A stretch of 64,000 bases of DNA from a virus (IMGVR_UViG_3300032312_001958); one strand, 5' to 3'. Positions 4,589 through 50,086 are shown, counted from the stretch's first letter. Notes: generated by a model from the letters alone, not told the origin. Translations and numbers: made by a program.

Positions 4589-5562
4589 ATTTTAATTGTA
4601 TAATATTCCATCCAGTAGTCAATCATTTCATCTAACATACTTTCAAAAGTGTATTCATGTGACCAACTTGTTTTTTCTATCAATTTTGATGAGTCCCCTT
4701 TTAAGTCATGTAATTCTTCAGGTCTTAAAAATTTCTCATCCTGAGTTACATACTCTCTATAGTCTAAACCTAAAGATGAGAATACGTAATCACAAAGTTC
4801 TCTTACTGAGTGTGATACCCCTGTCGAGCAAACAAAATCATCTGAATTATCTAATTGTAATATTTGCCACATTGCTTTAACGTAATCTTTAGCATGACCC
4901 CAATCACGAGTCGCGTCAAGGTTACCTAATTTTAATTCATTAGAAAAACCTAATTTTATTTTAACCGCTTCTTTACAAACTTTATTAGTTACAAAATTAG
5001 TTCCTCGTCTTGGTGATTCGTGATTAAATAAGATTCCATTAGATATGAACATACCATAAGAATTTCTATAATTACGACAAATGTTATAACTAAATACTTT
5101 TGCACATCCGTAAGGTGATACTGGATTCATTGGGGTAGTTTCTCTTTGATAACCATCAGAATCAATTGAATTACCAAACATTTCGGATGATGATGCTTGA
5201 TAAATTTTAGTATTAGGTTTAATTAATTTCACGGATTCAAGTAGATTTAAAGTACCTAAACCAGTAACATTAGATGTGTAGATTGGTTGGTCAAAAGAAA
5301 TTCTAACGTGAGATTGTGCCGCTAAATTATATATTTCATCAGGCATTACTTTTTGTATTACAGATATTAAAGATGAAATATCAGTTAAATCCGCATAATG
5401 TAATTTAACCTTATCATAAACATTCTCTAATCTTGAGGTTTGATTTTCCGCAACAGAGTTTCTTTTTAATGTACCATGGACTTCGTATCCCTTCTCAAGT
5501 AATAGTTCGGATAGGTAAGACCCATCTTGTCCATTTATACCTGTTATTAGTGCTTTTTTCAT
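4585..5562 (-). CDS. gmd: GDP-mannose 4,6-dehydratase
   Basis: ALITGINGQDGSYLSELLL, YNLAAQSHV, YQASSSEMFG, SPYGCAK, FNHESPRRG, GNLDATRDWGHAKDY. Confidence 0.97.
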   Translation of the reverse strand: MKKALITGINGQDGSYLSELLLEKGYEVHGTLKRNSVAENQTSRLENVYDKVKLHYADLTDISSLISVIQKVMPDEIYNLAAQSHVRISFDQPIYTSNVTGLGTLNLLESVKLIKPNTKIYQASSSEMFGNSIDSDGYQRETTPMNPVSPYGCAKVFSYNICRNYRNSYGMFISNGILFNHESPRRGTNFVTNKVCKEAVKIKLGFSNELKLGNLDATRDWGHAKDYVKAMWQILQLDNSDDFVCSTGVSHSVRELCDYVFSSLGLDYREYVTQDEKFLRPEELHDLKGDSSKLIEKTSWSHEYTFESMLDEMIDYWMEYYTIKI

Positions 5563-26596: not shown

Positions 26597-26968
26597 ATGG
26601 AATACCCAATAAGTGAAATTTTAGATAGATATTCTATCGCTATTTTAAAAAAAGAAAGATTAGATATTGATAATCAAAAAGAAATTAATGATTTAAAAGT
26701 TGTTATAGAATCTTATAAAGATGAGAATTTTGAATTTATTGAATCCTATATAACTAAATTAATAGATATAAATGGAAAAATATGGGATTTAGAATCGGAT
26801 ATTAGAAAAGGTAAAGAAGGAGTGTTAGGATTAGAAGAAGTTGGTAGAAGAGCAATTCTTATTCGAGAAAATAATAAAATAAGAGTTGGATATAAAAACG
26901 AAATTGTTGAATATTTTGGAGTTGGTTATTTAGACATAAAAATGAATCACGTTAGTTCCAATGGATAA
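26597..26968 (+). CDS. DUF6165-like helical protein
   Basis: PISEILDRYSIAILK, INGKIWDLESDIR, NKIR..YKNEI; paralog at 46084. Confidence 0.6.
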   Translation: MEYPISEILDRYSIAILKKERLDIDNQKEINDLKVVIESYKDENFEFIESYITKLIDINGKIWDLESDIRKGKEGVLGLEEVGRRAILIRENNKIRVGYKNEIVEYFGVGYLDIKMNHVSSNG

Positions 26969-28550
26969 GATAGTTATAACCCTTACAACCGTACCCCAAA
27001 GACTTTCTTACAATGTCGATGATGGATTTAAATTGGTTTTAAAATCACTTTGTGAACAAAACCATGAAAATTATGAGGTTCATTTAAATTTACCGTATTT
27101 TTATAATGTTACAGATGAAGAGTATATTATACCTGATTGGTTAAATGAATATAGTCAAAAATACAGTCATTTTAAAATTTTTAGAACTCCCGATTATGGA
27201 CCCCCAACTAAAGTTGTCCCAACAATAAAGAGAGAAAGTAAAAATACTTTAATGATTATTGTTGATGATGATTTAATTTATCATCCAGACATGATTAACG
27301 AACATTTAAAATATCATGACTTGCTTGACGACTCAGTAATTTTATATGACGGTAGAAGTTTAGTTTATCCTAAATTTGGTGATTTAAGAGATGCTTGGGT
27401 TTTAACTGTAAATGAAATATTAAGAGTTAAAGAATTACAACATTATAAATCCGCGTCATATTTTGTCAAATATTTTGAGGATGATTTTTTCAGAGATTTT
27501 GTTGGTCATACTAAATCAGATGATGTTTTAATGTCTTATTATTTTAGATATAAAGATATACCAATGTATGTTGTTCCTTATGAAGAAGAAGCAAAATTAA
27601 TATTTGATTACGATAGTTGGCATAAAACTCAACGGGTTGAAACTTTTCCAGTAATTAGACCCTCAAATAGTTTAATGGACACTGGATGTAATCACCCTGA
27701 TATATTAAAAAATGAACCAAAATTTTTTATACCTGATAGTTTTAAACATGTGGACCAAAAACCATTTATCAGTAAACATGAAAATATTATAGGTACAAAT
27801 AATAAAAAAACTATTGAAGTACCGATTCAAAATAGAACACTAAATAACAAATTAGAAATCCATAGAGTTAGAGATTTAATTTTAAAAATTAGCGAAGATT
27901 TTAATAAGATTGATAAGAAATTTTGGGACACAATTCATTTAACAGGTGAAGAACACGATTTCCAAAGAAGTAAGCCCGCTCCTTACATAAAAAAAACTTG
28001 TGAGATTGGAAAAATTTTAGGATTAAAAACTGTGGTTGAAATTGGTGCAACTAGACATGGAATAACTCCTAATTGTGTTAATTATTTTTACAATTCTAAT
28101 AATCCATTTGTATCACCTACATGTTGTGCGGATGGTCACGGAGGAATATTTTTCTCATTAGAAGGATTTGAAACTTACTCAGTTGATATTGATGAAAATT
28201 GTGAGACACATATTAGATGGTCATACGAATCTATTGGTAGGGAAATCCCAAGTAACCTAAATTTATTCATACCTAAAGACGGGATAGAATTTTTAAATGA
28301 ATTTGAAGGTAATATTGATATTTTATTTCTTGATGGTTGGGATGTTGGTACTCATGAATATGCTGAAAATCATTTAAAGGCATTTGAAGTCTCTAAAGAA
28401 AAGTTATCCGATATTCATTTAATTTTAATTGATGATACTGATTTTACAATGAGTGAGGGTAAAGATGTTTTATTGTCACCACATTTAATATCATTAGGTT
28501 ACACTTTATTATTCGATGGTAGACAAAAACTTTATATAAATAAAATTTGA
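26961..28550 (+). CDS. Glycosyltransferase (GT-A) + SAM methyltransferase fusion
   Basis: N-terminal ITLTTVPQR, DYGPPTK, VDDDLIY, SDDV; C-terminal VVEIGATR, FLDGWD, LIDDTD. Confidence 0.7.
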   Translation: MDKIVITLTTVPQRLSYNVDDGFKLVLKSLCEQNHENYEVHLNLPYFYNVTDEEYIIPDWLNEYSQKYSHFKIFRTPDYGPPTKVVPTIKRESKNTLMIIVDDDLIYHPDMINEHLKYHDLLDDSVILYDGRSLVYPKFGDLRDAWVLTVNEILRVKELQHYKSASYFVKYFEDDFFRDFVGHTKSDDVLMSYYFRYKDIPMYVVPYEEEAKLIFDYDSWHKTQRVETFPVIRPSNSLMDTGCNHPDILKNEPKFFIPDSFKHVDQKPFISKHENIIGTNNKKTIEVPIQNRTLNNKLEIHRVRDLILKISEDFNKIDKKFWDTIHLTGEEHDFQRSKPAPYIKKTCEIGKILGLKTVVEIGATRHGITPNCVNYFYNSNNPFVSPTCCADGHGGIFFSLEGFETYSVDIDENCETHIRWSYESIGREIPSNLNLFIPKDGIEFLNEFEGNIDILFLDGWDVGTHEYAENHLKAFEVSKEKLSDIHLILIDDTDFTMSEGKDVLLSPHLISLGYTLLFDGRQKLYINKI

Positions 28551-32637: not shown

Positions 32638-35433
32638 ATGATATCAAATGAAGAGATTGAGAATTTCCTACAAGGAAATGATGATGAAAAATATATAATC
32701 GGTGTTGAATACGATTATGTTAAAGATTGTGTTTGGAAAATCCTCGAACACCCAATCCACGGAAAACAAATTAAAAAAGATACATTCATCCCATTTGCTT
32801 GGGTTGGTGACTTACGTGGACTAAACTTTTATCAGTCATCAAAATCATTACAAAAAGAAGCGATGACAAAACATAAAATTGTTATTGAAAAATTACGAAC
32901 TGACGGTAATGAAAGATTGGAAAAAGGTTTAACGTTTATGGTTAAATCATTAAATGGGTACCGTTCATTAATACAGTTTTTTAGAGATGGTGGGGTTGAC
33001 CCTTGGGGTGAAAAAACTAAAGGATTGATTCTTATCCTACCTCCTGTTGAACAATTCTTGGTCACAAAGGAGAAAAGACTTTTCAAAGGATTTGATGATT
33101 ACAACAGTATCACAAGGTTTGTATTTGACTTGGAGACGACAGCATTAGAACCAAAGGATGGTCGTATTTTTATGATAGGGATGAAAACCAATAAAGGTTT
33201 TAGTCAGGTAATTGAGTGTTCAACTGAAGAACAAGAAAGAGAAGGTATTATCAAATTTTTTAATACAATAGATGAACTTAAACCAAGTATTATTGCATCT
33301 TACAATGGATTTAACTTTGACTGGTTTTGGATATTTGAAAGAGCCAAAGCGTTAAAATTGGACATTAAAAAGGTTGCTAAAACTTTAAATCCAATTAACC
33401 CAATCAAACAATCAGAATCAATGTTAAAACTCGCAAATGAGGTTGAGAGGTTTAATCAGACATCTATGTGGGGGTATAATGTTGTGGATACTTTACACGC
33501 AGTTAGAAGAGCTCAAGCGATTAACTCATCTATTAAATCTGCGGGTTTGAAGTATATTACCCAGTACATTAAAGCCGAGGCTACTGACCGTGTTTATATT
33601 GACCACACAGATATTGGTCCGTTCTATGCTAAGAAAGAAGAATATTGGTTAAACATACAAAACGGAAAATATAAAAAAGTGGGAGTTGACCCCACAATTG
33701 ACGAAGCGTGTTCAAAACACTCAAATGTTTATATTAAAACAACAGGTGATGATTTGGTTGAACGATATCTTGACGATGACTTAGAAGAAACTTTAACGGT
33801 TGATGAAGAATTCAATCAGGGTTCTTTCCTACTTGCGTCTTTGGTTCCAACAACATATGAAAGGGTTTCTACTATGGGAACTGCAACATTATGGGAAATC
33901 CAAATGAGAGCTTGGTCATACAAACATATGTTAGCAATTCCTAAAAAGAATGAAAAGACAGAGTTTGTAGGAGGATTATCTCGACTACTTAAAGTAGGAT
34001 TCTCTACTGATGTATTGAAACTTGACTTCTCCTCACTTTACCCATCAATACAACTTGTTCACGATGTATTCCCAACTTGTGATATTACAGGAGCGATGAA
34101 AGGCATGTTAAATTACTTCCGTAATACTCGTATTAAATATAAAAATTTGGCGAAAGAATATCAGGATATAGATAAAAAACAAGCAACATCTTACGACAGA
34201 AAACAATTACCGATTAAGATTTTCATTAACTCAATGTTTGGGGCATTATCCGCCCCTCAGGTGTACCATTGGGGTGATATGTATATGGGTGAACAGATTA
34301 CCTGTACAGGACGACAATACCTTCGTCAGATGTTACGTTTCTTTATGAAACGAGGTTATACCCCACTTGTATGTGATACGGATGGTATGAACTTCTCATT
34401 ACCTGAAGGTGGTGTGGATGATAGAAGATATATCGGCAAAGGTAAGAATTGGTTAGTTAAAGAAGGTAAAGAATACAAAGGTTACGACGCTGATGTTGCG
34501 GAGTTTAACGATATGTTTATGAAAGGTGCGATGGGACTTGATTGTGATGGAACTTGGAAATCCTGTATGAATATCGCTCGTAAGAACTACGCAACGATGG
34601 AACACAATGGTAAAATTAAACTTACGGGTAATTCAATCAAGAGTAAGAAACTACCACTTTATATTGAAGACTTTTTGGATAAGGGAATTAAGATGTTGTT
34701 AGAAGGTGACGGACAATCATTTGTTGAGTGGTATTACGAATACTTGGAAGTTATCTTTAATCAACAAATTCCATTAATGAAGATTGCTCAAAGAGCGAAG
34801 GTTAAATTATCAATTGATGATTATAACAAACGTTCAAAAGAAAAGACCAAAGCAGGTAATGAAATGTCTCGTATGGCTCATATGGAATTAGCAATGAGAG
34901 ATGGAATTGCAGTTAGTTTAGGGGATGTAATATTCTATGTCAATAATGGGGTTAAAGCATCACACGGAGATGTTCAAAAGGTTAATAAACCTAAAAAAGG
35001 GTGGTCACAATCTGATTTGGATAATATGATGGAAGGATATGGTAAAATACCTCTTGAAATGGTTGAATCGTATGTAAAACTTAATTGTTATCGTCTTAAC
35101 CCATCTGAATTGGAGTCAAATCCTAATATGACGGGAGAATATAACGTGGCAAGAGCGGTTGTTACATTCAATAAGAGAATTGAACCATTGTTGATTGTAT
35201 TTGGTGAAGAAGTTAGAAATAATTTAATTATTACTGACCCTAAAGACAGAGGTTTGTTTACCAAAGAACAATGTAAACTAATTAACGGTGTTCCATTTGA
35301 ACCAAGTGACCAAGATAGTATTGAGGACTTGTTAACTATTACTGAACAAGAAAAGATATATTGGGAAAAACGAGGAGTTGACCCTGAATACATTTATGAA
35401 CTTGCTGAAGAAGGGTGGGAAGAAATGGTGTAA
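32638..35433 (+). CDS. Family B DNA polymerase
   Basis: Exonuclease motifs FDLETT and YNGFNFDW; polymerase motifs LDFSSLYPSI, KIFINSMFG, CDTDG, RKNYA. Confidence 0.95.
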   Translation: MISNEEIENFLQGNDDEKYIIGVEYDYVKDCVWKILEHPIHGKQIKKDTFIPFAWVGDLRGLNFYQSSKSLQKEAMTKHKIVIEKLRTDGNERLEKGLTFMVKSLNGYRSLIQFFRDGGVDPWGEKTKGLILILPPVEQFLVTKEKRLFKGFDDYNSITRFVFDLETTALEPKDGRIFMIGMKTNKGFSQVIECSTEEQEREGIIKFFNTIDELKPSIIASYNGFNFDWFWIFERAKALKLDIKKVAKTLNPINPIKQSESMLKLANEVERFNQTSMWGYNVVDTLHAVRRAQAINSSIKSAGLKYITQYIKAEATDRVYIDHTDIGPFYAKKEEYWLNIQNGKYKKVGVDPTIDEACSKHSNVYIKTTGDDLVERYLDDDLEETLTVDEEFNQGSFLLASLVPTTYERVSTMGTATLWEIQMRAWSYKHMLAIPKKNEKTEFVGGLSRLLKVGFSTDVLKLDFSSLYPSIQLVHDVFPTCDITGAMKGMLNYFRNTRIKYKNLAKEYQDIDKKQATSYDRKQLPIKIFINSMFGALSAPQVYHWGDMYMGEQITCTGRQYLRQMLRFFMKRGYTPLVCDTDGMNFSLPEGGVDDRRYIGKGKNWLVKEGKEYKGYDADVAEFNDMFMKGAMGLDCDGTWKSCMNIARKNYATMEHNGKIKLTGNSIKSKKLPLYIEDFLDKGIKMLLEGDGQSFVEWYYEYLEVIFNQQIPLMKIAQRAKVKLSIDDYNKRSKEKTKAGNEMSRMAHMELAMRDGIAVSLGDVIFYVNNGVKASHGDVQKVNKPKKGWSQSDLDNMMEGYGKIPLEMVESYVKLNCYRLNPSELESNPNMTGEYNVARAVVTFNKRIEPLLIVFGEEVRNNLIITDPKDRGLFTKEQCKLINGVPFEPSDQDSIEDLLTITEQEKIYWEKRGVDPEYIYELAEEGWEEMV

Positions 35434-41266: not shown

Positions 41267-44200
41267 ATGGCTAAATCAAACACAGTTTACGTTTCTCCGG
41301 GTGTGTATACATCTGAAAGAGATTTGAGTTTTGTGTCTCAAAATGTCGGTGTAACTACTTTAGGTATTGTTGGGGAAACGGTTAAAGGTCCCGCCTTTGA
41401 GCCGATTTTCATCACAAATTATGATGAATTCCAACTTTACTTTGGTGGAACAACACCTGAAAAATTTGTGAACACACAAATACCTAAGTATGAGGCCGCA
41501 TATATTGCGAAATCTTACCTACAACAATCTAATCAACTTTTTGTAACTCGTGTATTAGGATTATCGGGTTATGATGCGGGGCCTTCGTGGTCTATCAGTA
41601 CTGTTGCAAATGTTGATTGTAATACTGTTGGATTCAATAATACATCAGTTAACTACTCATTTACATTTATAGGAACTACTGCTTCAACATCTACAATTTC
41701 GTTTTTGAGTAACCCTCCTTCAGTAATTAACGCTAATTTTACTGAAAATTATACAACATTTAACGGAGGAACGTCAACAATTTCAGACGATGTTAAATCC
41801 TTGTTGTTAAACATTATGAGAACGCCAGCATCTTCAGCATATACTGCGAGTGTTTGGGGTACTATCCCTTCAAGTGAGTATGTAACATTTGCATCCATTT
41901 ATACTGGAATAACTAACGAATTTGGAGTAACTAGTTTATCGGCAATTACATGTAACGCGAATAACGACCCATGGTTTTATTCAAATTTTGATTTAACTAC
42001 AGGTAATTCATACTCAGGTTATTCGTTCAATGGGGCAGTTAGGTCTTTATCTGGTAATTCTTCAGGGCAATTCTCAGGAAGTGTATCAGGTACTTACTAT
42101 ACATTAACAGGTACTGCTTTTTCAAATTATAATAATATTGTTGTAACAACCCTTCGCTCAAGAGGATTAGCTGATTACGCTAATGATGCGGGTCCAGTTT
42201 ATCAGGTATCAGGAACTTCTAATTTAAATATGATTTGTTCAGGAGCGTATTCAGGTGTTACTAAAAATCCGTTTACAACTTTCTTGTTGTCGGGAGTTAC
42301 TATTGAAAATACAAACTTCACTTATGAAGTTAACTTACTTGAGACAAGTCCAAACTACATTTCAAAAGTGCTTGGAGTTTCAAATTTTGGAAAACCAAGA
42401 ACAACTTTCCCATTATTTGTTGAAGAAACTTATTCTACTTTGTTAAATTATGCATATAACAAAGGTTACATTAGAGGATTAAATTGTACATTAGATACTA
42501 CAAGTAAAGCTAGAGATTTGACAGCCGATTCTTTAGGATGGTATTTGGAACAATATCAAAGTGCTGAGTCTCCTTGGGTAGTATCAGAATTAAGAGGTAA
42601 TAAAGTGTATGAATTATTTAAATTTTTTACAATTGCCGATGGTAATAATTCAAATACTCAAGTAAAAGTCACAATTGCGAATATTTCGTTTACAAATGGA
42701 ACATTTGATGTTGTGGTTAGAGATTTTTATGATACCGATAGTAATCCTGTTGTAGTTGAAAAATTCTCAAACTGTAGTATGGACCCAGGTTTGAATAATT
42801 ATATCGCTAAAAAAATTGGTACGTCTGATGGAGAATTCCAATTAAATTCTAAATATATCATGTTAGAAGTTAATATGGATGCACCAATTGACGCATTACC
42901 TTGTGGATTTGAGGGATACATCAATAGAGAATATCCTTCAGCGTCACCATCTTACCCTGTTTATAAGACTAAATACTATATTCCAGGTGAGACAATATAT
43001 GACCCTCCTTTTGGTAATTCCGCAGGAACTAATAATGACACCCAAAGTTCAGGTGATAATGTTAGAAGAAGTTATTTAGGTTTTTCAAGTCAGTTTGGTG
43101 TTGATGAATCATTATTGATTTACAAGGGAAAACAAAACCCTGTAAGTGATTTCTGTGATGCGACAACTGGTTCTGATTGGGCATATCTTTCTAAAGGTTT
43201 CCACATGGATAGTGGAGCTACCGCTATTACAATTTCACAACTTAATCCTAATTATGGAGGTTTAGTGACATCAGGTAATCAAGCATTTGACTGTGGTGTC
43301 GCATCTTTCAATTCAGAACCAACATCTGAAACAAACCCATATTATAGATTATTCTCACGTAAATTTACTATGGTTCTCCAAGGAGGTTTTGATGGATGGG
43401 ATATCTATACAGAAAGAAGAACAAATTCAGATAGATTTGTATTAGGAAGAAGTGGATATTTGGCAGGAGCATGTGTATCAACAACATATCCATTAGCTAC
43501 AGGTACAGGAATGTTTAAACAAATCACTGTAGGTGAAAATAGTGTGGATTGGGCAAACACTGACTACTACGCATACTTGCTAGGTCAACAAACCTTCTCA
43601 AATCCTGAGGCAGTTAACATCAATGTGTTTGTTACACCTGGTATTGACATTGATAACAACAGTAATCTTGTAGAATCAGCAATTGACATGATTGAGAATG
43701 ACAGAGCTGACTCAATATACATTACAACAATTCCTGACTTCAATTTGTTACAACCATCAACATCTATGGATAATTTATACTATCCACAAGAGGTTGTAGA
43801 TATTTTAGAAACTGCAGGTATTGATTCGAACTATACCGCAACTTACTATCCTTGGGTATTAACTCGTGATACTGTTAATAACACACAAATTTATCTTCCA
43901 GCAACTGCTGAAGTAACAAGAAACTTGGCATTAACGGATAACATTGCATTCCCATGGTTCGCAGCCGCAGGTTACACAAGAGGATTGGTAAACGCTATCA
44001 AAGCTCGTAAAAAGTTAACTCAAGAAGACAGAGACACATTGTACAAAGGTAGAATTAATCCTATCGCAACTTTCAATGATGTAGGGACTGTTATTTGGGG
44101 TAATAAAACTCTTCAAATTAGAGAGTCAGCATTAGATAGAATTAACGTTAGAAGATTGTTGTTACAAGCACGTAAGTTGATTTCAGCGGTGGCGGTAAGA

Positions 44201-44446
44201 TTATTGTTTGAACAAAACGACGCGGTAGTTAGACAACAATTCTTAGATTCGGTTAATCCAATCTTAGATTCTATTCGTAGAGACAGAGGTTTATATGACT
44301 TTAGAGTTACAGTTCAAAACACTCCTGAAGATTTAGATAGAAACCAAATGATAGGTAAGATTTACATCAAACCAACTAAAGCTCTTGAATTTATTGATAT
44401 TGAGTTCTTAATTACTCCAACTGGAGCTTCTTTTGAAAACATCTAA
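41267..44446 (+). CDS. Contractile tail sheath protein (gp18-like) with large insertions
   Basis: VSPGVYTSERDLS, GETVKGP, YYPW, PWFAAAGYTRG, RINPI, WGNKTL, RINVRRL, IKPTKALEFI. Confidence 0.95.
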   Translation: MAKSNTVYVSPGVYTSERDLSFVSQNVGVTTLGIVGETVKGPAFEPIFITNYDEFQLYFGGTTPEKFVNTQIPKYEAAYIAKSYLQQSNQLFVTRVLGLSGYDAGPSWSISTVANVDCNTVGFNNTSVNYSFTFIGTTASTSTISFLSNPPSVINANFTENYTTFNGGTSTISDDVKSLLLNIMRTPASSAYTASVWGTIPSSEYVTFASIYTGITNEFGVTSLSAITCNANNDPWFYSNFDLTTGNSYSGYSFNGAVRSLSGNSSGQFSGSVSGTYYTLTGTAFSNYNNIVVTTLRSRGLADYANDAGPVYQVSGTSNLNMICSGAYSGVTKNPFTTFLLSGVTIENTNFTYEVNLLETSPNYISKVLGVSNFGKPRTTFPLFVEETYSTLLNYAYNKGYIRGLNCTLDTTSKARDLTADSLGWYLEQYQSAESPWVVSELRGNKVYELFKFFTIADGNNSNTQVKVTIANISFTNGTFDVVVRDFYDTDSNPVVVEKFSNCSMDPGLNNYIAKKIGTSDGEFQLNSKYIMLEVNMDAPIDALPCGFEGYINREYPSASPSYPVYKTKYYIPGETIYDPPFGNSAGTNNDTQSSGDNVRRSYLGFSSQFGVDESLLIYKGKQNPVSDFCDATTGSDWAYLSKGFHMDSGATAITISQLNPNYGGLVTSGNQAFDCGVASFNSEPTSETNPYYRLFSRKFTMVLQGGFDGWDIYTERRTNSDRFVLGRSGYLAGACVSTTYPLATGTGMFKQITVGENSVDWANTDYYAYLLGQQTFSNPEAVNINVFVTPGIDIDNNSNLVESAIDMIENDRADSIYITTIPDFNLLQPSTSMDNLYYPQEVVDILETAGIDSNYTATYYPWVLTRDTVNNTQIYLPATAEVTRNLALTDNIAFPWFAAAGYTRGLVNAIKARKKLTQEDRDTLYKGRINPIATFNDVGTVIWGNKTLQIRESALDRINVRRLLLQARKLISAVAVRLLFEQNDAVVRQQFLDSVNPILDSIRRDRGLYDFRVTVQNTPEDLDRNQMIGKIYIKPTKALEFIDIEFLITPTGASFENI

Positions 44447-46560: not shown

Positions 46561-47049
46561 ATGGCTGATTTGCTGATGAAAATGCCTATTCCCTACGAAC
46601 CGAAAAGGCAGAATAGATTTATATTAAGATTTGATTCTTCTTTGGGAATCAATGAATGGTTTGTAGAATCTACAAGTAGACCACACATCACAATCGGTGC
46701 TACTGAGATTCAATTCCTAAACACATCTACATTCGTAGCAGGTAGATTTAACTGGCAAACAATTAACGTAACATTCCGTGACCCAATTGGACCTTCTGCA
46801 GCTCAGGCACTTATGGAATGGGTTCGTTTACACGCGGAATCTGTAACAGGTCGTATGGGTTACGCTGCGGGTTATAAGAAAAACATTGACTTAGAAATGT
46901 TAGACCCGACAGGTGTTGTTGTTGAAAAATGGTTGTTACAAGATACATTCTTAACTGACGTTAACTTTAACCAATTATCTTACTCACAAGATGGATTGGC
47001 AACTATCACGGCAACTTTAAGACCTGATAGATGTATCTTAGTTTACTAA
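46561..47049 (+). CDS. Tail tube protein (gp19-like)
   Basis: EPKRQNRF, GRFNWQTINVTFRDPI, LMEW, YKKNIDLEMLDPTGVVVEKWLL. Confidence 0.88.
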   Translation: MADLLMKMPIPYEPKRQNRFILRFDSSLGINEWFVESTSRPHITIGATEIQFLNTSTFVAGRFNWQTINVTFRDPIGPSAAQALMEWVRLHAESVTGRMGYAAGYKKNIDLEMLDPTGVVVEKWLLQDTFLTDVNFNQLSYSQDGLATITATLRPDRCILVY

Positions 47050-47094: not shown

Positions 47095-47146
47095 GTTTAC
47101 TATGAATTAATATTAGATTATTTTAATTAATAAAATACAAACAAAT

Positions 47147-47899
47147 ATGGACTCAAGAGAAGCCGGACAAATGAATTTTAATTTACCTCACGATATAGTG
47201 ACACTACCAAGTGGAGGTAAATTTTATAAAAATAAAAAGAAAAGTGTTAAAGTTGGATTTTTAACTGCTTCAGATGAAAATCATTTAGTTAATATTAAAA
47301 AAGCTGATTCACAATCTATCATAAACGCAATTGTTAGAAACAAACTTTATGAGCCTGATATGAAACCAGAACAAATGTTAGATGGGGATATCGAAGCAGT
47401 TTTGGTATTTCTTAGAAACACTTCATTTGGTCCTAATTATAGTATACCTGCAATTGACCCTGCAACTGGAGAGTCATTTATTGCTAATATCGACCTATCT
47501 GAGTTAGATATTAAAAAAACTAAAGAAGAACCTGATGGTGAGGGTTTGTTTGTTACAACATTACCTAAAAGTAATGTATCCGTTAAATTAAAACTTTTAA
47601 CGTTTGGTGAAGATTTAGAAATTGAAAGACAACTAGAAGGTTACCCACAAGGACTTACTCCACCAAGAATTACAAAAAGACTATTAGAACAGATTGTTGA
47701 ATTAAATGGTACAAGAGATAAAGGTGAAATATCTAAGTCAATTGAAAAAATGCCAATTACTGACTCAAAATATATTCGTAATTTTTTGAGTGAAAACGAG
47801 CCAAGATACGATTTAACAAAAGAAGTTATCGCCCCGTCCGGAAAAAAGGTATCCTTGAGGATAGCCTTTGGGGTGGAGTTTTTTCGGCCTTTCTTCTGA
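47147..47899 (+). CDS. Baseplate hub assembly / tail assembly chaperone (T4 gp26-like)
   Basis: VTLPSGGKFY, GDIEAVLVFLRNTSFG, TLPKS; lies between tube and tape measure genes; ends GVEFFRPFF. Confidence 0.75.
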   Translation: MDSREAGQMNFNLPHDIVTLPSGGKFYKNKKKSVKVGFLTASDENHLVNIKKADSQSIINAIVRNKLYEPDMKPEQMLDGDIEAVLVFLRNTSFGPNYSIPAIDPATGESFIANIDLSELDIKKTKEEPDGEGLFVTTLPKSNVSVKLKLLTFGEDLEIERQLEGYPQGLTPPRITKRLLEQIVELNGTRDKGEISKSIEKMPITDSKYIRNFLSENEPRYDLTKEVIAPSGKKVSLRIAFGVEFFRPFF

Positions 47900-48041
47900 T
47901 TACTACGAAGTACAGATGAATGAGTTTCTTTTATTATCAATGAAACTCAATATGTCCTACGAAGATTTCTTACTTATACCCGTATTCCAAAGAAGGTATT
48001 TAATTAATAAATTAGTTGAAATGAATACGCCTAAGGAATAA
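47886..48041 (+). CDS. gp51-like / chaperone C-terminal extension in the +1 frame (own ATG at 47916 possible)
   Basis: Not in ORF track. GLSSDYYEVQMNEFLLLSMKLNMSYEDFLLIPVFQRRYLINKLVEMNTPKE*; this frame is open from 47865. Confidence 0.7.
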   Translation, partial: GLSSDYYEVQMNEFLLLSMKLNMSYEDFLLIPVFQRRYLINKLVEMNTPKE

Positions 48042-48067
48042 AAATTTTTTTTTAGTTATTTATATGT

Positions 48068-50086
48068 ATGGGATTTTTAGAAGATTTAGGTTCAGGTCTT
48101 AAAGATGTATTAGATGCATTTGTTGGCTCATTAGGAAGTTCTCTTAAAGAAAGTATAAGTACTGATGTTATATTAGACAACTTAGATAGAGTTGACGTAG
48201 GTATGACTCAGATTATAGGAGGGATGGGTGCTGGTCGAGAATTATCCCATTTAATAAAGTCAAATATTGCCGGTGCGTACACCAACGTCAAACTTTTAGG
48301 TGGTGATTTAGAAAACATTGTACAACAACAACAAAATCTAAATGACAGTACTGGTAGACAATTAATATTACAAAGAGAATATCACGACGATTTATTTGCG
48401 ACAACTAAAGTAACTGAACAATCCGCTCACGAATTGATTACCGCATTTGATAATGCTGGTAAGTCAGTTTATGACATTAAAAATACAATGGAAGGTGTTG
48501 TAAATCAGTCAAGGTCATTAGGATTAAACGCAACCGAAGTATCAACACGAATGGTTGCTAATCTTGAAAAGATGAACATGTACGGATTTGAAAGAGGTGT
48601 TGAAGGTTTGAGTAGGATGGCTGCTAAATCCGCAATGTTTAAGCTTGACATGAGTTCAACATTTAATTTGGCGGATAAATTAATAAGTCCTGAACAAGCT
48701 GTTGAGTTTTCTGCAAGATTACAATCTTTAGGTATACAAAGTGAACTTATTGACCCATTTAGAGCTATGGATTTGGCGACGAATGATATGGAAGAGTTAC
48801 AAAACCAAATGATTGAGTTAGGTAAGGGGATGACTTACTATAACGAACAAACAGGAAAAGTAGAAATATTCAAAGAAAAAAGAGGGGTTATTAAAGAGTT
48901 AGCAGCTGCGGCTGGAATGACTTCTACAGAATTTAGTCGAATGATAGTTCAGAGTGAAACTTTGAACAGGAAAATGGCTGAAATTAAAATGCCTAATTTA
49001 AATATTACTGAAGACCAAAAAACTATGATTGCTAATTTAGCGGCAATGAAGGACGGTCCACAAGGTAAAGGATATTATGTACAAATAGAAAAAGACGATG
49101 GTACAACTACGGAAAAACTTGTATCTTCACTAGACGACAAAGACATACAAAAATTAGCCGACCAAGTTGCGAATCCAAAAACTATGGAAGAATTGGCTCA
49201 AGACCAAGTAGATTTCTTGTCAAGAATGGCAAATAGTTTAGACGCCATTAAAAACGGACCAAGTATGGGTATTGCAGGTTCTAAATTAGGTGAAGGTGTG
49301 GTTGATTTAACAATCGCGGCAGATGCTTTAGTTTATAAACCTTTGGCTAAAGCAATGGATTCAGGTAAAATTTCTGATATTATTGATAAATCAGGTGATG
49401 ATTTAAAAAAAATATATGAAAGTATAACTACTTCGGCAAGCGGATTTGACGGTACTATTGCAGGATTTAAATCGTTACTAAACACAGGTCTTGATGGTAT
49501 TACTAATGCGACACTTGATGCGGCACTTGAATTCCAAAACAATTTAAAGCAAGTTAAAAGATTAGGTACTTTTGCAAATTATGGTGAGGTTTTAGATAAG
49601 GCGAATGTTAATGAATATAAAGTTGGCGAAATTAATGACGGGTTTGTATATGGTCAGGGAAATAATAAACAAATAGTACAAACACATCCTGATGATAATG
49701 CGTTTTTCGCTCAAAGACAAGGAATGGTTGCTGCGATGGGAGGTATGGACATTCTTCAAAAAGTTAAAGAAACTATCATAAGTGCTAACGCACCTACAAA
49801 CAATAATAACAATTATTTTGAACAATTCCAAAGTATGGTGATGAACCAAAATAATACTAAAGAAGTTAACCATAAAATGGACCCTATAAAACATGAGGGG
49901 GAATTAAAATTTTCGATTGATATAAACGCACCTGCTGGCGTAGATACAAGGGCGTTAAATGAAATATTTAAAAATAATAGAGGTTTTATGGAAAATTTAG
50001 TTGTTCAATTTAATAAACAAATGGATAACAATTATTTCACAAAGGCACCTACTGATGCTAATAGAACTTATATTAATGCGGGATAA
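48068..50086 (+). CDS. Tape measure protein
   Basis: Helical, A/G/M-rich, 672 aa, directly after the chaperone. Confidence 0.75.
   Translation: MGFLEDLGSGLKDVLDAFVGSLGSSLKESISTDVILDNLDRVDVGMTQIIGGMGAGRELSHLIKSNIAGAYTNVKLLGGDLENIVQQQQNLNDSTGRQLILQREYHDDLFATTKVTEQSAHELITAFDNAGKSVYDIKNTMEGVVNQSRSLGLNATEVSTRMVANLEKMNMYGFERGVEGLSRMAAKSAMFKLDMSSTFNLADKLISPEQAVEFSARLQSLGIQSELIDPFRAMDLATNDMEELQNQMIELGKGMTYYNEQTGKVEIFKEKRGVIKELAAAAGMTSTEFSRMIVQSETLNRKMAEIKMPNLNITEDQKTMIANLAAMKDGPQGKGYYVQIEKDDGTTTEKLVSSLDDKDIQKLADQVANPKTMEELAQDQVDFLSRMANSLDAIKNGPSMGIAGSKLGEGVVDLTIAADALVYKPLAKAMDSGKISDIIDKSGDDLKKIYESITTSASGFDGTIAGFKSLLNTGLDGITNATLDAALEFQNNLKQVKRLGTFANYGEVLDKANVNEYKVGEINDGFVYGQGNNKQIVQTHPDDNAFFAQRQGMVAAMGGMDILQKVKETIISANAPTNNNNNYFEQFQSMVMNQNNTKEVNHKMDPIKHEGELKFSIDINAPAGVDTRALNEIFKNNRGFMENLVVQFNKQMDNNYFTKAPTDANRTYINAG

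What the first reader, a model, noticed from the sequence alone, without database searches (positions are those of the whole stretch)
47862..48041. Candidate +1 programmed ribosomal frameshift in the tail chaperone (GGAG UUU UUU CGG)
Seen: the gp26-like ORF ends GGG GTG GAG TTT TTT CGG CCT TTC TTC TGA. The +1 frame is open from 47865 and reads FFGLSSDYYEVQMNEF...IPVFQRRYLINKLVE to TAA at 48041. tRNA-Phe can re-pair from UUU to UUC, the next codon CGG is rare in this AT-rich genome, and an SD-like GGUGGAG lies 3 nt before the slip codon. The area is locally GC-rich. Established: tailed phages make a G/GT chaperone pair by frameshift between tube and tape measure genes (usually -1; -2 in Mu); UUU_CGN is a known +1 shift site in influenza PA-X; prfB uses an SD 3 nt upstream. 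Inference: products of 250 aa and about 297 aa, meaning gp26/gp51-like sequences fused by an atypical +1 (or -2) shift.
Basis: partly seen in the sequence, partly recalled or inferred. Interest (0 to 1): 0.75.

Follow-up and report, generated by a model that had tools for sequence, protein, structure and literature searches.

The report
+1 frameshift in phage tail chaperone
One tail-assembly gene of this uncultured AT-rich jumbo phage very probably makes a 250-residue and a 297-residue protein because some ribosomes slip forward one base at a conserved UUU-UUU-CGG site; phage T4 makes the same pair from two genes (26 and 51), and the chaperone family and its back-slipping relatives were already published in 2022.

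Summary
The 250-aa ORF 47147-47899 belongs to Pfam PF12322 (T4 gp26/gp51). It lies between the tail tube gene and a probable tape measure gene.

In 39 distinct relatives (57-100% protein identity), TTT TTT CGN CCT TTC is invariant and the +1 frame is always open across it. The 50-54-codon +1 tail has no conserved start codon. It still evolves as coding sequence upstream of any possible start. So it must be reached from the gp26-like frame.

A broad profile of such +1 tails matches cyanophage gp51 (E 3e-6) and the C-terminal tail of T4 gp51 (E 4e-4).

Distant phages share only an in-frame UUU followed by C or U. Some have just three T's, and two carry no tRNA genes. This favours a ribosomal +1 slip of tRNA-Phe with a slow A-site codon. 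CGG makes up 2 of 20,630 codons here.

A conserved GC-rich hairpin lies just upstream. It could equally support transcriptional slippage, which I cannot exclude.

This scan has noted the same device many times on other DNA. Vladimirov et al. 2022 already identified the T4-like chaperone genes, so the new elements are the +1 direction and the site.

The parts
46561..47049 (+). Tail tube gene (gp19-like), directly upstream of the chaperone gene.
   Evidence: It matches phrog_4542 'tail tube protein' at 6.5e-26 and weakly matches Pfam Phage_T4_gp19.
47147..47899 (+). Short chaperone form of 250 aa (TAC-N, gp26-like), read in the 0 frame and ending ...FGVEFFRPFF*.
   Evidence: It hits PF12322 T4_baseplate at 38.1 bits (cut-off 24.5) and phrog_150 'baseplate hub' at 8e-14. 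There are 3517 homologues in 90%-identity clusters, and the best 120 are 201-259 aa, nearly all 248-259. In nearly all of the best 150 representatives at 50% identity, the match runs to within 0-4 residues of the protein's C-terminus.
47831..47874 (+). Conserved GC-rich upstream hairpin. The outer helix pairs GCCCCG (47831-36) with UGGGGU (47869-74). The inner helix pairs 47846-50 with 47864-68. The 3' arm ends 7 nt before the slip codon.
   Evidence: RNAalifold predicts this consensus. In one search, 97.2% of cells are paired, against 40-64% in slid controls. One inner pair covaries (AU 16, GC 15, other 1). None of 500 shuffles reached the observed covariation score. The helix uses rare codons (GCC, CCG, GGG) that are fixed at synonymous sites.
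47875..47878 (+). SD-like GGAG, ending 3 nt before the P-site slip codon.
   Evidence: It is present in the window. The Glu codon is GAG in 26 and GAA in 13 of 39 distinct relatives, while GAG makes up only 18.7% of Glu codons in the window. It is enriched but not invariant.
47879..47887 (+). Proposed shift site UUU UUU CGG. tRNA-Phe on UUU 47882-84 re-pairs with UUC 47883-85 while the rare CGG sits in the A site. The next codon read is GGC at 47886.
   Evidence: TTT TTT CGN is invariant in 39 distinct loci, and the Arg codon is never AGR. In four loci the +1 frame opens only two codons before the shift point. Distant phages keep only an in-frame UUU followed by C or U.
47886..48041 (+). The +1-frame tail (gp51-like C-terminal extension, 51 codons plus TAA). 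The long form is join(47147..47884, 47886..48041) and has 297 aa.
   Evidence: Entropy by codon position is 0.85, 0.64 and 1.30, the pattern of coding sequence. In tail codons 8-16 of the 25 relatives that have no start codon before codon 17, 57% of single-base codon differences are synonymous in the +1 frame, against 16% and 9.5% in the other two frames. The same stretch has 0 stops in the +1 frame against 25 and 26. hhalign against gp51 tails supports homology.
48068..50086 (+). Probable tape measure protein of 672 aa, directly downstream.
   Evidence: Pfam and PHROGs give no hit. In the ESM Atlas, 18 of 30 feature look-alikes are PF10145 tape-measure clusters, and others carry TMP_3, at a score of 0.91. 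This is a lead only. In Bacillus phage HSE3 the gene in this position is annotated as tape measure.

Best explanation
The gene at 47147-47899 encodes a tail or baseplate-hub assembly chaperone of the T4 gp26/gp51 family.

Most ribosomes terminate at UGA 47897 and make the 250-aa short form. A minority slip forward when tRNA-Phe sits on the second UUU (47882-84) in the P site and the very rare CGG codon waits in the A site. The tRNA re-pairs one base forward on UUC, and the ribosome reads GGC and then the +1 frame to TAA 48039-41. The result is a 297-aa long form that carries a gp51-like tail.

The conserved GC-rich hairpin just upstream, and perhaps the GGAG 3 nt before the slip codon, probably set the efficiency.

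By analogy with lambda G/GT, the shared domain would hold the tape measure protein and the tail would recruit a second partner.

Shown here: the conserved site, the absence of a start codon for the tail, its coding signature, and its homology to gp51 tails. Inferred: the ribosomal +1 mechanism, the role of the hairpin, the ratio of the two products, and the binding partners.
For: **Site and frame**
- TTT TTT CGN CCT TTC is invariant, and the +1 frame is open, in 39 distinct loci with 57-100% protein identity.
- There is no conserved start codon. The first ATG, GTG or TTG falls at tail codons 4 to 31, and one relative has no ATG at all.
- The stretch upstream of any start codon has a coding signature in the +1 frame only, with no stops.
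- None of the 120 nearest homologues carries the tail in frame. Nearly all of the 150 representatives end at the motif.

**Homology to gp26/gp51**
- T4 gp26 (208 aa, ending ..EFFELL) and gp51 (249 aa, the same domain plus a tail) both belong to PF12322.
- The +1 tail profile matches cyanophage gp51 tails at E 3.2e-6. It matches T4 gp51 tails at E 4e-4. The cyanophage tails match T4 gp51 tails at E 8.8e-10.

**Mechanism**
- CGG is 2 of 20,630 codons.
- Microcystis phage Mel-JY01, Bacillus phages HSE3 and SP-15, Streptococcus phage GXN1, huge phage LR756508 and a second jumbo-phage clade all have the +1 layout. All have an in-frame UUU followed by C or U. Three of them have only TTT, not T6.
- SP-15 and HSE3 have no tRNA genes.
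- UUU_Ynn is described as especially prone to +1 shifting in bacteria (PMC5009743).

**Chaperone role**
- The gene order is sheath, tube, this gene, probable tape measure.
- The three best fold matches out of 48,161 chains are 3fgx, 3klu (YqbN) and 2ob9. 2ob9 is the HK97 tail assembly chaperone. I recall the other two as TAC-family structures but did not check this. Z is 5.6-6.1.
Against: - No protein or RNA data exist.
- The T6 run is strictly kept in this clade and is T7 in the second clade. A hairpin followed by a U run is also the signature of stem-loop-stimulated transcriptional slippage.
- The A-site codon is not uniformly rare across lineages (CGU, UGG, CAC, CUA).
- GGAG is not invariant.
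- The hairpin is not found in the same form in the second clade. The window's own fold is no more stable than shuffled sequence (z -0.44).
- Between the U run and the 0-frame stop the two frames overlap. Conservation there cannot locate the shift to the nucleotide.
- The fold matches are weak (Z below 8), and Foldseek found nothing.
Confidence: 0.68

Rival explanations
1. Transcriptional slippage. RNA polymerase, helped by the nascent hairpin just upstream, drops one U in the U6 run. Standard translation of the U5 mRNA then gives the same 297-aa protein.
For: T6 is invariant in this clade and T7 in the second clade. When the last U is added, a conserved GC-rich hairpin ends right at the edge of a 10-nt RNA-DNA hybrid, GGAGUUUUUU. 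In Roseiflexus IS630, a hairpin 5'-adjacent to U5C5 yields transcripts that lack one base (PMC5009743). Only a small percentage of long form would probably be needed.
Against: Six U's fill only part of the hybrid, and the GGAG part would mispair after realignment. HSE3, GXN1 and LR756508 keep the +1 layout with only three U's. Slippage would not explain why the base after the run is always C or U, nor why Arg is always CGN and never AGR.
Confidence: 0.13
2. A -2 ribosomal frameshift. tRNA-Phe on the second UUU slips back two bases within the U6 run. UUC is then read as an extra Phe, giving a 298-aa product with the junction EFFFGLSS.
For: The frame reached is the same. Re-pairing on UUU is perfect within U6. 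From my own recollection, phage Mu uses a -2 shift for its tail chaperone.
Against: It is impossible in the relatives that have TTC TTT CGT or AAC TTT CTA. A rare A-site codon and a C or U after the codon are hallmarks of +1 shifting, not -2.
Confidence: 0.06
3. The +1 step is driven by a phage-encoded tRNA with an enlarged anticodon loop that reads a Phe codon plus one base.
For: A complete 294-kb relative with the same site carries an extra tRNA (L118:9909-9983). The Rfam model places an 8-nt loop, UUAGAAAU, in it: a Phe-type GAA with an extra A. Two jumbo phages of the second +1 clade carry tRNAs with 4-base anticodons of the same 'extra A before G34' type.
Against: The window has no tRNA genes, and its whole genome is not held. 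Exact-pattern scans found this tRNA only in that one phage. A 242-kb relative shows no homologue. SP-15 and HSE3 have the +1 layout and no tRNA genes at all. The tRNA is not a close copy of the phage's own tRNA-Phe.
Confidence: 0.04
4. There is no fusion. The small ORF is translated on its own from ATG 47916 as a 41-aa protein, and the conserved T run only encodes the Phe-Phe of the gp26 C-terminus.
For: An ATG exists in this phage at 47916. GenBank records annotate the corresponding small ORFs as separate genes.
Against: The ATG is not conserved, and 25 of 39 relatives have no start codon before tail codon 17. The residues upstream of it are conserved and evolve as coding sequence. No SD-like sequence is visible before 47916.
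Confidence: 0.04

Closest known systems
Phage T4 gp26 (208 aa) and gp51 (249 aa), identified as the tail assembly chaperones of T4-like phages by Vladimirov, Gautam and Davidson, Virology 2022;566:9-15 (pmid 34826709). The paper is not held in the library. I know it only through citing papers PMC10885494 and PMC12846349.
   Same: The Pfam family is the same (PF12322). There is a short form ending at the ..EFF.. motif and a long form made of the same domain plus a tail of about 50 aa. The tail is homologous by profile comparison.
   Different: T4 encodes the two forms as two separate, diverged genes on opposite strands. This phage uses one gene plus a frame change. Pairwise similarity to the T4 proteins is not detectable.
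gp26 plus short 'gp51' of cyanophage-type T4-like phages (P-SSM2, Melnitz, OLIVR5, PhiW-14). Sullivan et al. 2010 (PMC3037559) noted that cyanophage gp51 is about 20% of the T4 length. PMC12846349, citing Vladimirov 2022, calls poly-T sequences known -1 signals in TAC-N genes of T4-like phages.
   Same: The layout is one gene plus an overlapping tail ORF. A T6 run sits at the ..FF.. motif a few codons before the stop, and the tail is homologous.
   Different: In those phages the run lies as T_TTT_TTC, a canonical -1 heptamer, and the tail is in the -1 frame. Here it lies as TTT_TTT_CGG and the tail is in the +1 frame.
Lambda gpG/gpGT and the conserved tail-chaperone frameshift of long-tailed phages (Xu, Hendrix and Duda 2004; Fig. 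4 of PMC5009743).
   Same: The gene lies between the tube and tape measure genes. Two products share an N-terminus through recoding near the 3' end. The model gives weak matches to TAC structures.
   Different: The direction is +1, not -1. There is no X_XXY_YYZ heptamer. The protein is about 250 aa rather than about 140 aa, and it belongs to a different sequence family.
+1 frameshift sites of the UUU_Ynn or UUU_CGN type and prfB. These include the bacterial +1-prone UUU_Ynn site and Yersinia YopN-TyeA, influenza PA-X UCC_UUU_CGU (all from PMC5009743), and RF2 CUU_UGA with an SD 3 nt upstream (from my own recollection).
   Same: A P-site tRNA can re-pair one base forward, the A-site codon is slow, and in this phage a GGAG sits 3 nt upstream.
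   Different: The slow codon is a rare sense codon, not a stop. The SD-like element is not invariant. The conserved stimulator appears to be an upstream hairpin.
Roseiflexus IS630 stem-loop-stimulated transcriptional slippage (PMC5009743).
   Same: A GC-rich hairpin lies immediately 5' of a short U run, and the outcome is equivalent to a one-base deletion, that is the +1 frame.
   Different: The hairpin here is 4 nt from the run and has a large interior. The run is U6 followed by a single C, not U5C5. Distant relatives have only U3.

Membership tests
Pfam PF12322 T4_baseplate (T4 gp26/gp51 hub assembly chaperones) | The sequence matches the family HMM above the curated cut-off. | tested here: met
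   The score is 38.1 bits against a cut-off of 24.5, E 1.7e-9, covering residues 20-233. T4 gp26 and gp51 score 215.6 and 177.5 bits against the same model.
Pfam PF12322 T4_baseplate (T4 gp26/gp51 hub assembly chaperones) | The long form carries a gp51-type C-terminal tail. | tested here: met
   A profile of 96 +1 tails matches cyanophage gp51 tails at Prob 88%, E 3.2e-6. It matches T4 gp51-family tails at Prob 35%, E 4e-4. The cyanophage tails match T4 tails at Prob 96.5%, E 8.8e-10. The window clade alone was not significant. T4 gp51 homologues carry PF28602, a family absent from the local Pfam copy, so I could not scan for it.
Tail assembly chaperone with programmed frameshift (lambda G/GT type) | The gene lies between the tail tube gene and the tape measure gene. 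| tested here: met
   The tube gene 46561-47049 is identified by PHROG. The downstream 672-aa ORF resembles tape measure clusters, as a lead only. The same order is seen in Mel-JY01, SP-15 and HSE3.
Tail assembly chaperone with programmed frameshift (lambda G/GT type) | Two products share an N-terminus, the longer one made by recoding near the 3' end. | not testable with these tools
   Comparative evidence is strong: there is no start codon, the tail has a coding signature, and the site is invariant. No protein data exist.
Tail assembly chaperone with programmed frameshift (lambda G/GT type) | A -1 slippery heptamer X_XXY_YYZ. | tested here: not met
   In the 0 frame the run reads GAG TTT TTT CGG, and the tail is in the +1 frame. 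The -1 frame closes after 14 codons.
Tail assembly chaperone with programmed frameshift (lambda G/GT type) | The TAC fold. | tested here: inconclusive
   The AF2 model has pLDDT 86.3. The top three VIA-align matches are 3fgx (Z 6.1), 3klu YqbN (Z 5.7) and 2ob9, the HK97 TAC (Z 5.6), followed by Z 4.2. Foldseek gave no hit at E <= 1e-3.
prfB-type +1 programmed frameshift | The P-site codon allows re-pairing one base forward, next to a slowly decoded A-site codon. | tested here: met
   UUU moves to UUC for tRNA-Phe(GAA). CGG is 2 of 20,630 codons. Whether decoding is actually slow was not measured.
prfB-type +1 programmed frameshift | A Shine-Dalgarno sequence 3 nt upstream of the shift codon. 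| tested here: inconclusive
   GGAG is at the right distance in the window. The Glu codon is GAG in 26 and GAA in 13 of 39 relatives, against 18.7% GAG usage.
Stem-loop-stimulated transcriptional slippage (Roseiflexus IS630 type) | A nascent RNA hairpin directly 5' of a short slippery run, giving one-base-deleted transcripts. | not testable with these tools
   A hairpin is present and conserved, 4 nt from the U6 run. No transcript data exist. Relatives with U3 argue against this model.

The most novel reading that the evidence does not exclude
The forward step is not a spontaneous slip. It is promoted by a dedicated phage tRNA with an 8-nt anticodon loop: a Phe-type GAA anticodon with an extra A before position 34. 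Such a tRNA is present in a complete 294-kb relative that has the same site. Two jumbo phages of the second +1 clade carry analogous Val-like and Ser-like tRNAs with the same extra A. On this reading these phages would encode natural frameshift-promoting tRNAs.
Probability: 0.04. Interest if true: 0.85.

Novelty: new variant of a known kind. Interest (0 to 1): 0.5.

Why it matters
Tail assembly chaperones of long-tailed phages are the textbook case of a conserved programmed frameshift, almost always -1.

This locus shows the gp26/gp51 family solving the same problem in three ways:
- two genes in T4;
- a -1 slip on T_TTT_TTC in cyanophage-type relatives;
- a +1 step on TTT_TTT_CGG or TTT_TTT_TGG in large clades of freshwater jumbo phages, and in Bacillus, Streptococcus and Microcystis phages.

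All three use essentially the same T-rich codons of the ..EFF.. motif.

This gives a natural comparison for asking what sets the direction of a slip on a U run. It also gives a compact bacterial +1 cassette (hairpin, GGAG, UUU_UUU_CGG) that can be tested in reporters.

In practice, hundreds of small 'gp51' or 'hypothetical' ORFs after PF12322 genes should be annotated as the 3' part of a joined CDS.

Tried and rejected
**Searches that found nothing**
- DNA search of the region against 50,697 phage records found no match.
- Pairwise BLASTP of the fused protein against T4 gp51 was not significant.
- hhalign of the window clade's full-length fused alignment against the T4 gp51 family gave E 0.17, even over the shared Pfam domain.
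- hhalign of the window clade's tails alone was weak, E 0.032 and 0.21. Only a broader tail profile connected the groups.
- Foldseek against the PDB gave nothing at E <= 1e-3.

**Genome-wide CGGN four-base reading** (a lead from earlier scan notes): rejected for this window. The only other in-frame CGG, at 27633, lies inside an intact 529-aa ORF, and no gene is broken at a CGG.

**Special tRNA**
- The window has no tRNA genes, and no whole genome is held.
- One IMG/VR scan was wasted on a wrong gap length. The corrected scan found the odd tRNA only in one phage.

- A scan with P0268 found nothing.
- The upstream hairpin of the window clade was not recovered in the second +1 clade or in single distant genomes.
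I repeated it using references.
- The key paper, Vladimirov 2022, is not held, so I could not check whether it already describes +1 cases.

Full report
**Observation.**
- The ORF 47147-47899 (250 aa) ends GGG GTG GAG TTT TTT CGG CCT TTC TTC TGA.
- The +1 frame is open from 47865, just after TAG 47862-64, to TAA 48039-41.
- The first ATG in that frame is at 47916.
- Reading through with a one-base forward step gives a 297-aa protein.
- CGG occurs in frame twice in 20,630 codons of 55 window ORFs, and once is here.
- Positions 47826-47895 are 48.6% GC in a 29.4% GC window, the 99.5th percentile.

**What the gene is.**
- The 250-aa protein hits Pfam PF12322 T4_baseplate (38.1 bits, cut-off 24.5) and phrog_150 'baseplate hub'.
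- The gene upstream is the tail tube (phrog_4542, 6.5e-26). The tail sheath gene lies at 41267-44446 and a family-B-type DNA polymerase at 32638-35433.
- The 672-aa ORF downstream has no family hit, but its feature look-alikes are tape measure clusters. This is a lead only.
- The order is therefore sheath, tube, this gene, probable tape measure, as for tail assembly chaperones.
- An AlphaFold2 model (pLDDT 86.3) has no Foldseek match.
- With the independent aligner, the three best of 48,161 chains are 3fgx, 3klu (YqbN) and 2ob9, at Z 5.6-6.1, with the next at Z 4.2. 2ob9 is the HK97 tail assembly chaperone. I recall the other two as members of the same structural family but did not check this. 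The support is weak but points in one direction.

**Comparative test of the frameshift.**
- IMG/VR gave 80 loci with 57-100% protein identity, of which 39 are distinct around the site.
- All keep TTT GGG GNN GAR TTT TTT CGN CCT TTC. Both Phe codons are always TTT. Arg is always CGG, CGT or CGC and never AGR.
- In all of them the +1 frame is open from before the run to a stop 50-54 codons later. The +1 peptide is conserved.
- The window's ATG is Leu or Ile in most relatives.
- The first ATG, GTG or TTG falls anywhere from tail codon 4 to 31. It is at codon 17 or later in 25 of 39, and one relative has no ATG at all.
- I examined tail codons 8-16 in those 25 sequences. These codons lie after the 0-frame stop and before any start codon. 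There, 57% of single-base codon differences are synonymous in the +1 frame, against 16% and 9.5% in the other two frames. There are 0 stops in the +1 frame, against 25 and 26.
- The tail is therefore translated in the +1 frame without its own start. Translation must enter from the gp26-like frame.
- In four loci the +1 frame opens only two codons before the shift point. The change of frame must then occur within the eight codons E F F R P F F stop.
- None of the 120 nearest homologues has the tail in frame. Nearly all of the 150 best representatives in 1.84 billion proteins end at the motif, although many have long N-terminal extensions.

**Relation to T4.**
- In T4, gp26 (208 aa, ending ..KEFFELL) and gp51 (249 aa) both match PF12322. 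gp51 has about 48 extra C-terminal residues.
- Sullivan et al. 2010 noted that cyanophage gp51 is only the C-terminal fifth of T4 gp51 (PMC3037559).
- In P-SSM2, Melnitz, OLIVR5, PhiW-14 and 80 P-SSM2-like loci, gp26 ends with T_TTT_TTC or T_TTT_TTT. The small gp51 ORF lies in the -1 frame and is open back across that heptamer.
- A profile of 96 +1 tails matches the cyanophage -1 tails (Prob 88%, E 3.2e-6) and T4 gp51-family tails (E 4e-4). The cyanophage tails match T4 tails at E 8.8e-10.
- So the window phage makes from one gene what T4 makes from genes 26 and 51.

**Which mechanism.** The +1 layout is widespread. It occurs in:
- Microcystis phage Mel-JY01 (TTT TTT TGG);
- a second large jumbo-phage clade (TTT TTT TGG CCT, with tails of 83-90 aa);
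- Bacillus phage SP-15 (TTT TTT CAC);
- Bacillus phage HSE3 and Streptococcus phage GXN1 (TTC TTT CGT);
- huge phage LR756508 (AAC TTT CTA).

The only common feature is an in-frame UUU followed by C or U. That is what tRNA-Phe needs to re-pair one base forward, and UUU_Ynn is described as especially +1-prone in bacteria (PMC5009743). Three of these phages have only three T's, which argues against both a -2 slip and polymerase slippage as the general mechanism. SP-15 and HSE3 have no tRNA genes, so a phage tRNA cannot be a general requirement. In the window the A-site codon is the rarest Arg codon together with CGC.

**Upstream element.**
- The window clade has an invariant GCCCC(G) at 47831-36 that can pair with (U)GGGG(U/C) at 47869-74. 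An inner helix has one pair that covaries (AU 16, GC 15, other 1 of 32 rows).
- Overall 97.2% of cells pair, against 40-64% for slid controls, and no shuffle reaches the observed covariation score.
- The helix uses codons that are rare here: GCC 8.6% of Ala, CCG 9.1% of Pro, GGG 14.5% of Gly.
- Its 3' arm ends 7 nt before the slip codon.
- From memory, upstream hairpins that refold behind the ribosome have been reported to stimulate +1 shifting. I did not check that paper.
- The same arrangement, a GC hairpin followed by a U run, also resembles the Roseiflexus IS630 signal for one-base-deleted transcripts (PMC5009743). I keep transcriptional slippage as the main rival at about 13%.
- The hairpin was not recovered in the second clade.
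- GGAG is enriched but not fixed (26 GAG, 13 GAA).

**tRNA lead.**
- An earlier scan note hinted at four-base decoding.
- The window has no tRNA genes, and its genome is not held.
- A complete 294-kb relative with the same site has about 29 tRNA hits, including one that default ARAGORN misses. The Rfam model gives that one an 8-nt anticodon loop, UUAGAAAU.
- Exact-pattern scans found that tRNA only in that phage.
- Two complete genomes of the second clade have tRNAs with 4-base anticodons, again with an extra A before G34.
- This is intriguing but unconnected to the site by any test, so I give it 4%.
- A genome-wide CGGN reading is excluded for this window.

**Prior art and novelty.**
- Full-text searches for gp26, gp51 and frameshift found nothing directly.
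[quoted passage not shown]'.
- Citing papers say that some T4-like phages carry one short and one long fused gene (PMC10885494). They also say that poly-T sequences are known -1 signals in TAC-N genes of T4-like phages (PMC12846349).
- The paper itself is not held.
- The chaperone identity and the -1 version are therefore published. Earlier notes of this scan that say 'no published report' are too strong.
- A +1 shift has also been proposed for the archaeal myovirus HSTV-2, apparently in its tail assembly genes (PMC5009743; I saw only part of the passage).
- What appears new is the +1 version on TTT_TTT_CGG or TTT_TTT_TGG in this family, its breadth, and the upstream hairpin.
- This scan has already noted the same device many times on other DNA, including one +1 case.

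**Verdict.** It is a new variant of a known kind, of moderate interest.

Noticed in passing
L118:9909-9983 (= G001:C1:253809-253883, IMGVR_UViG_3300027804_000038; the same sequence is in G003): This is a tRNA-like gene (Rfam 52 bits) that default ARAGORN misses. The covariance model gives it a 5-bp anticodon stem and an 8-nt loop, UUAGAAAU: a Phe-type GAA with an extra A. It has A73 and no long variable arm. The same phage also has a normal tRNA-Phe.
   Followed up: partly
L363 complement 5320-5393 (G009) and L370 13035-13120 (G010): Two complete jumbo phages of about 365 kb from the second +1 clade carry tRNAs that ARAGORN calls with 4-base anticodons, AGAC and AGGA. Both again look like a normal G34 anticodon (Val GAC, Ser GGA) with an extra A after U33.
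   Followed up: no
L365 complement 351-424 (G009); L369 4305-4380 (G010); L368 267-340 (G010): Both of those jumbo phages have tRNA(CUA) amber-suppressor-type genes. One also has a tRNA called with a 2-base anticodon (6-nt loop). This may indicate stop-codon recoding in that clade.
   Followed up: no
window 27633-27635: This is the only other in-frame CGG in 55 window ORFs. It lies inside an intact 529-aa ORF (26961-28550). CGC is equally rare, with one occurrence.
   Followed up: yes
L283-L362 (second clade, P0242 type): The +1 tails in this clade are 83-90 aa. Beyond the gp51-like part they carry a conserved basic C-terminal extension ending ..ISGDALK..MK.G.IP... There is also a separate conserved upstream nucleotide block containing GGAGGTGG.
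   Followed up: partly
proteins P0225-P0367: Many distant homologues have N-terminal extensions of 60-200 aa in front of the PF12322 domain, but they still end at the ..FF.P.. motif.
   Followed up: no
T4 gp51 homologues P0124-P0215: The precomputed annotation gives these proteins a second Pfam family, PF28602, besides PF12322. It presumably covers the gp51 tail. It is absent from the local Pfam copy, so I could not scan the window's tail against it.
   Followed up: no
window 47100-47146 and 48042-48067: The stretches before the start codons of the chaperone gene and of the 672-aa gene are A/T-rich with no visible Shine-Dalgarno sequence. Most relatives have a TATTTAT motif after the tail's stop. 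This suggests a host with little SD use and a late-promoter-like motif.
   Followed up: no
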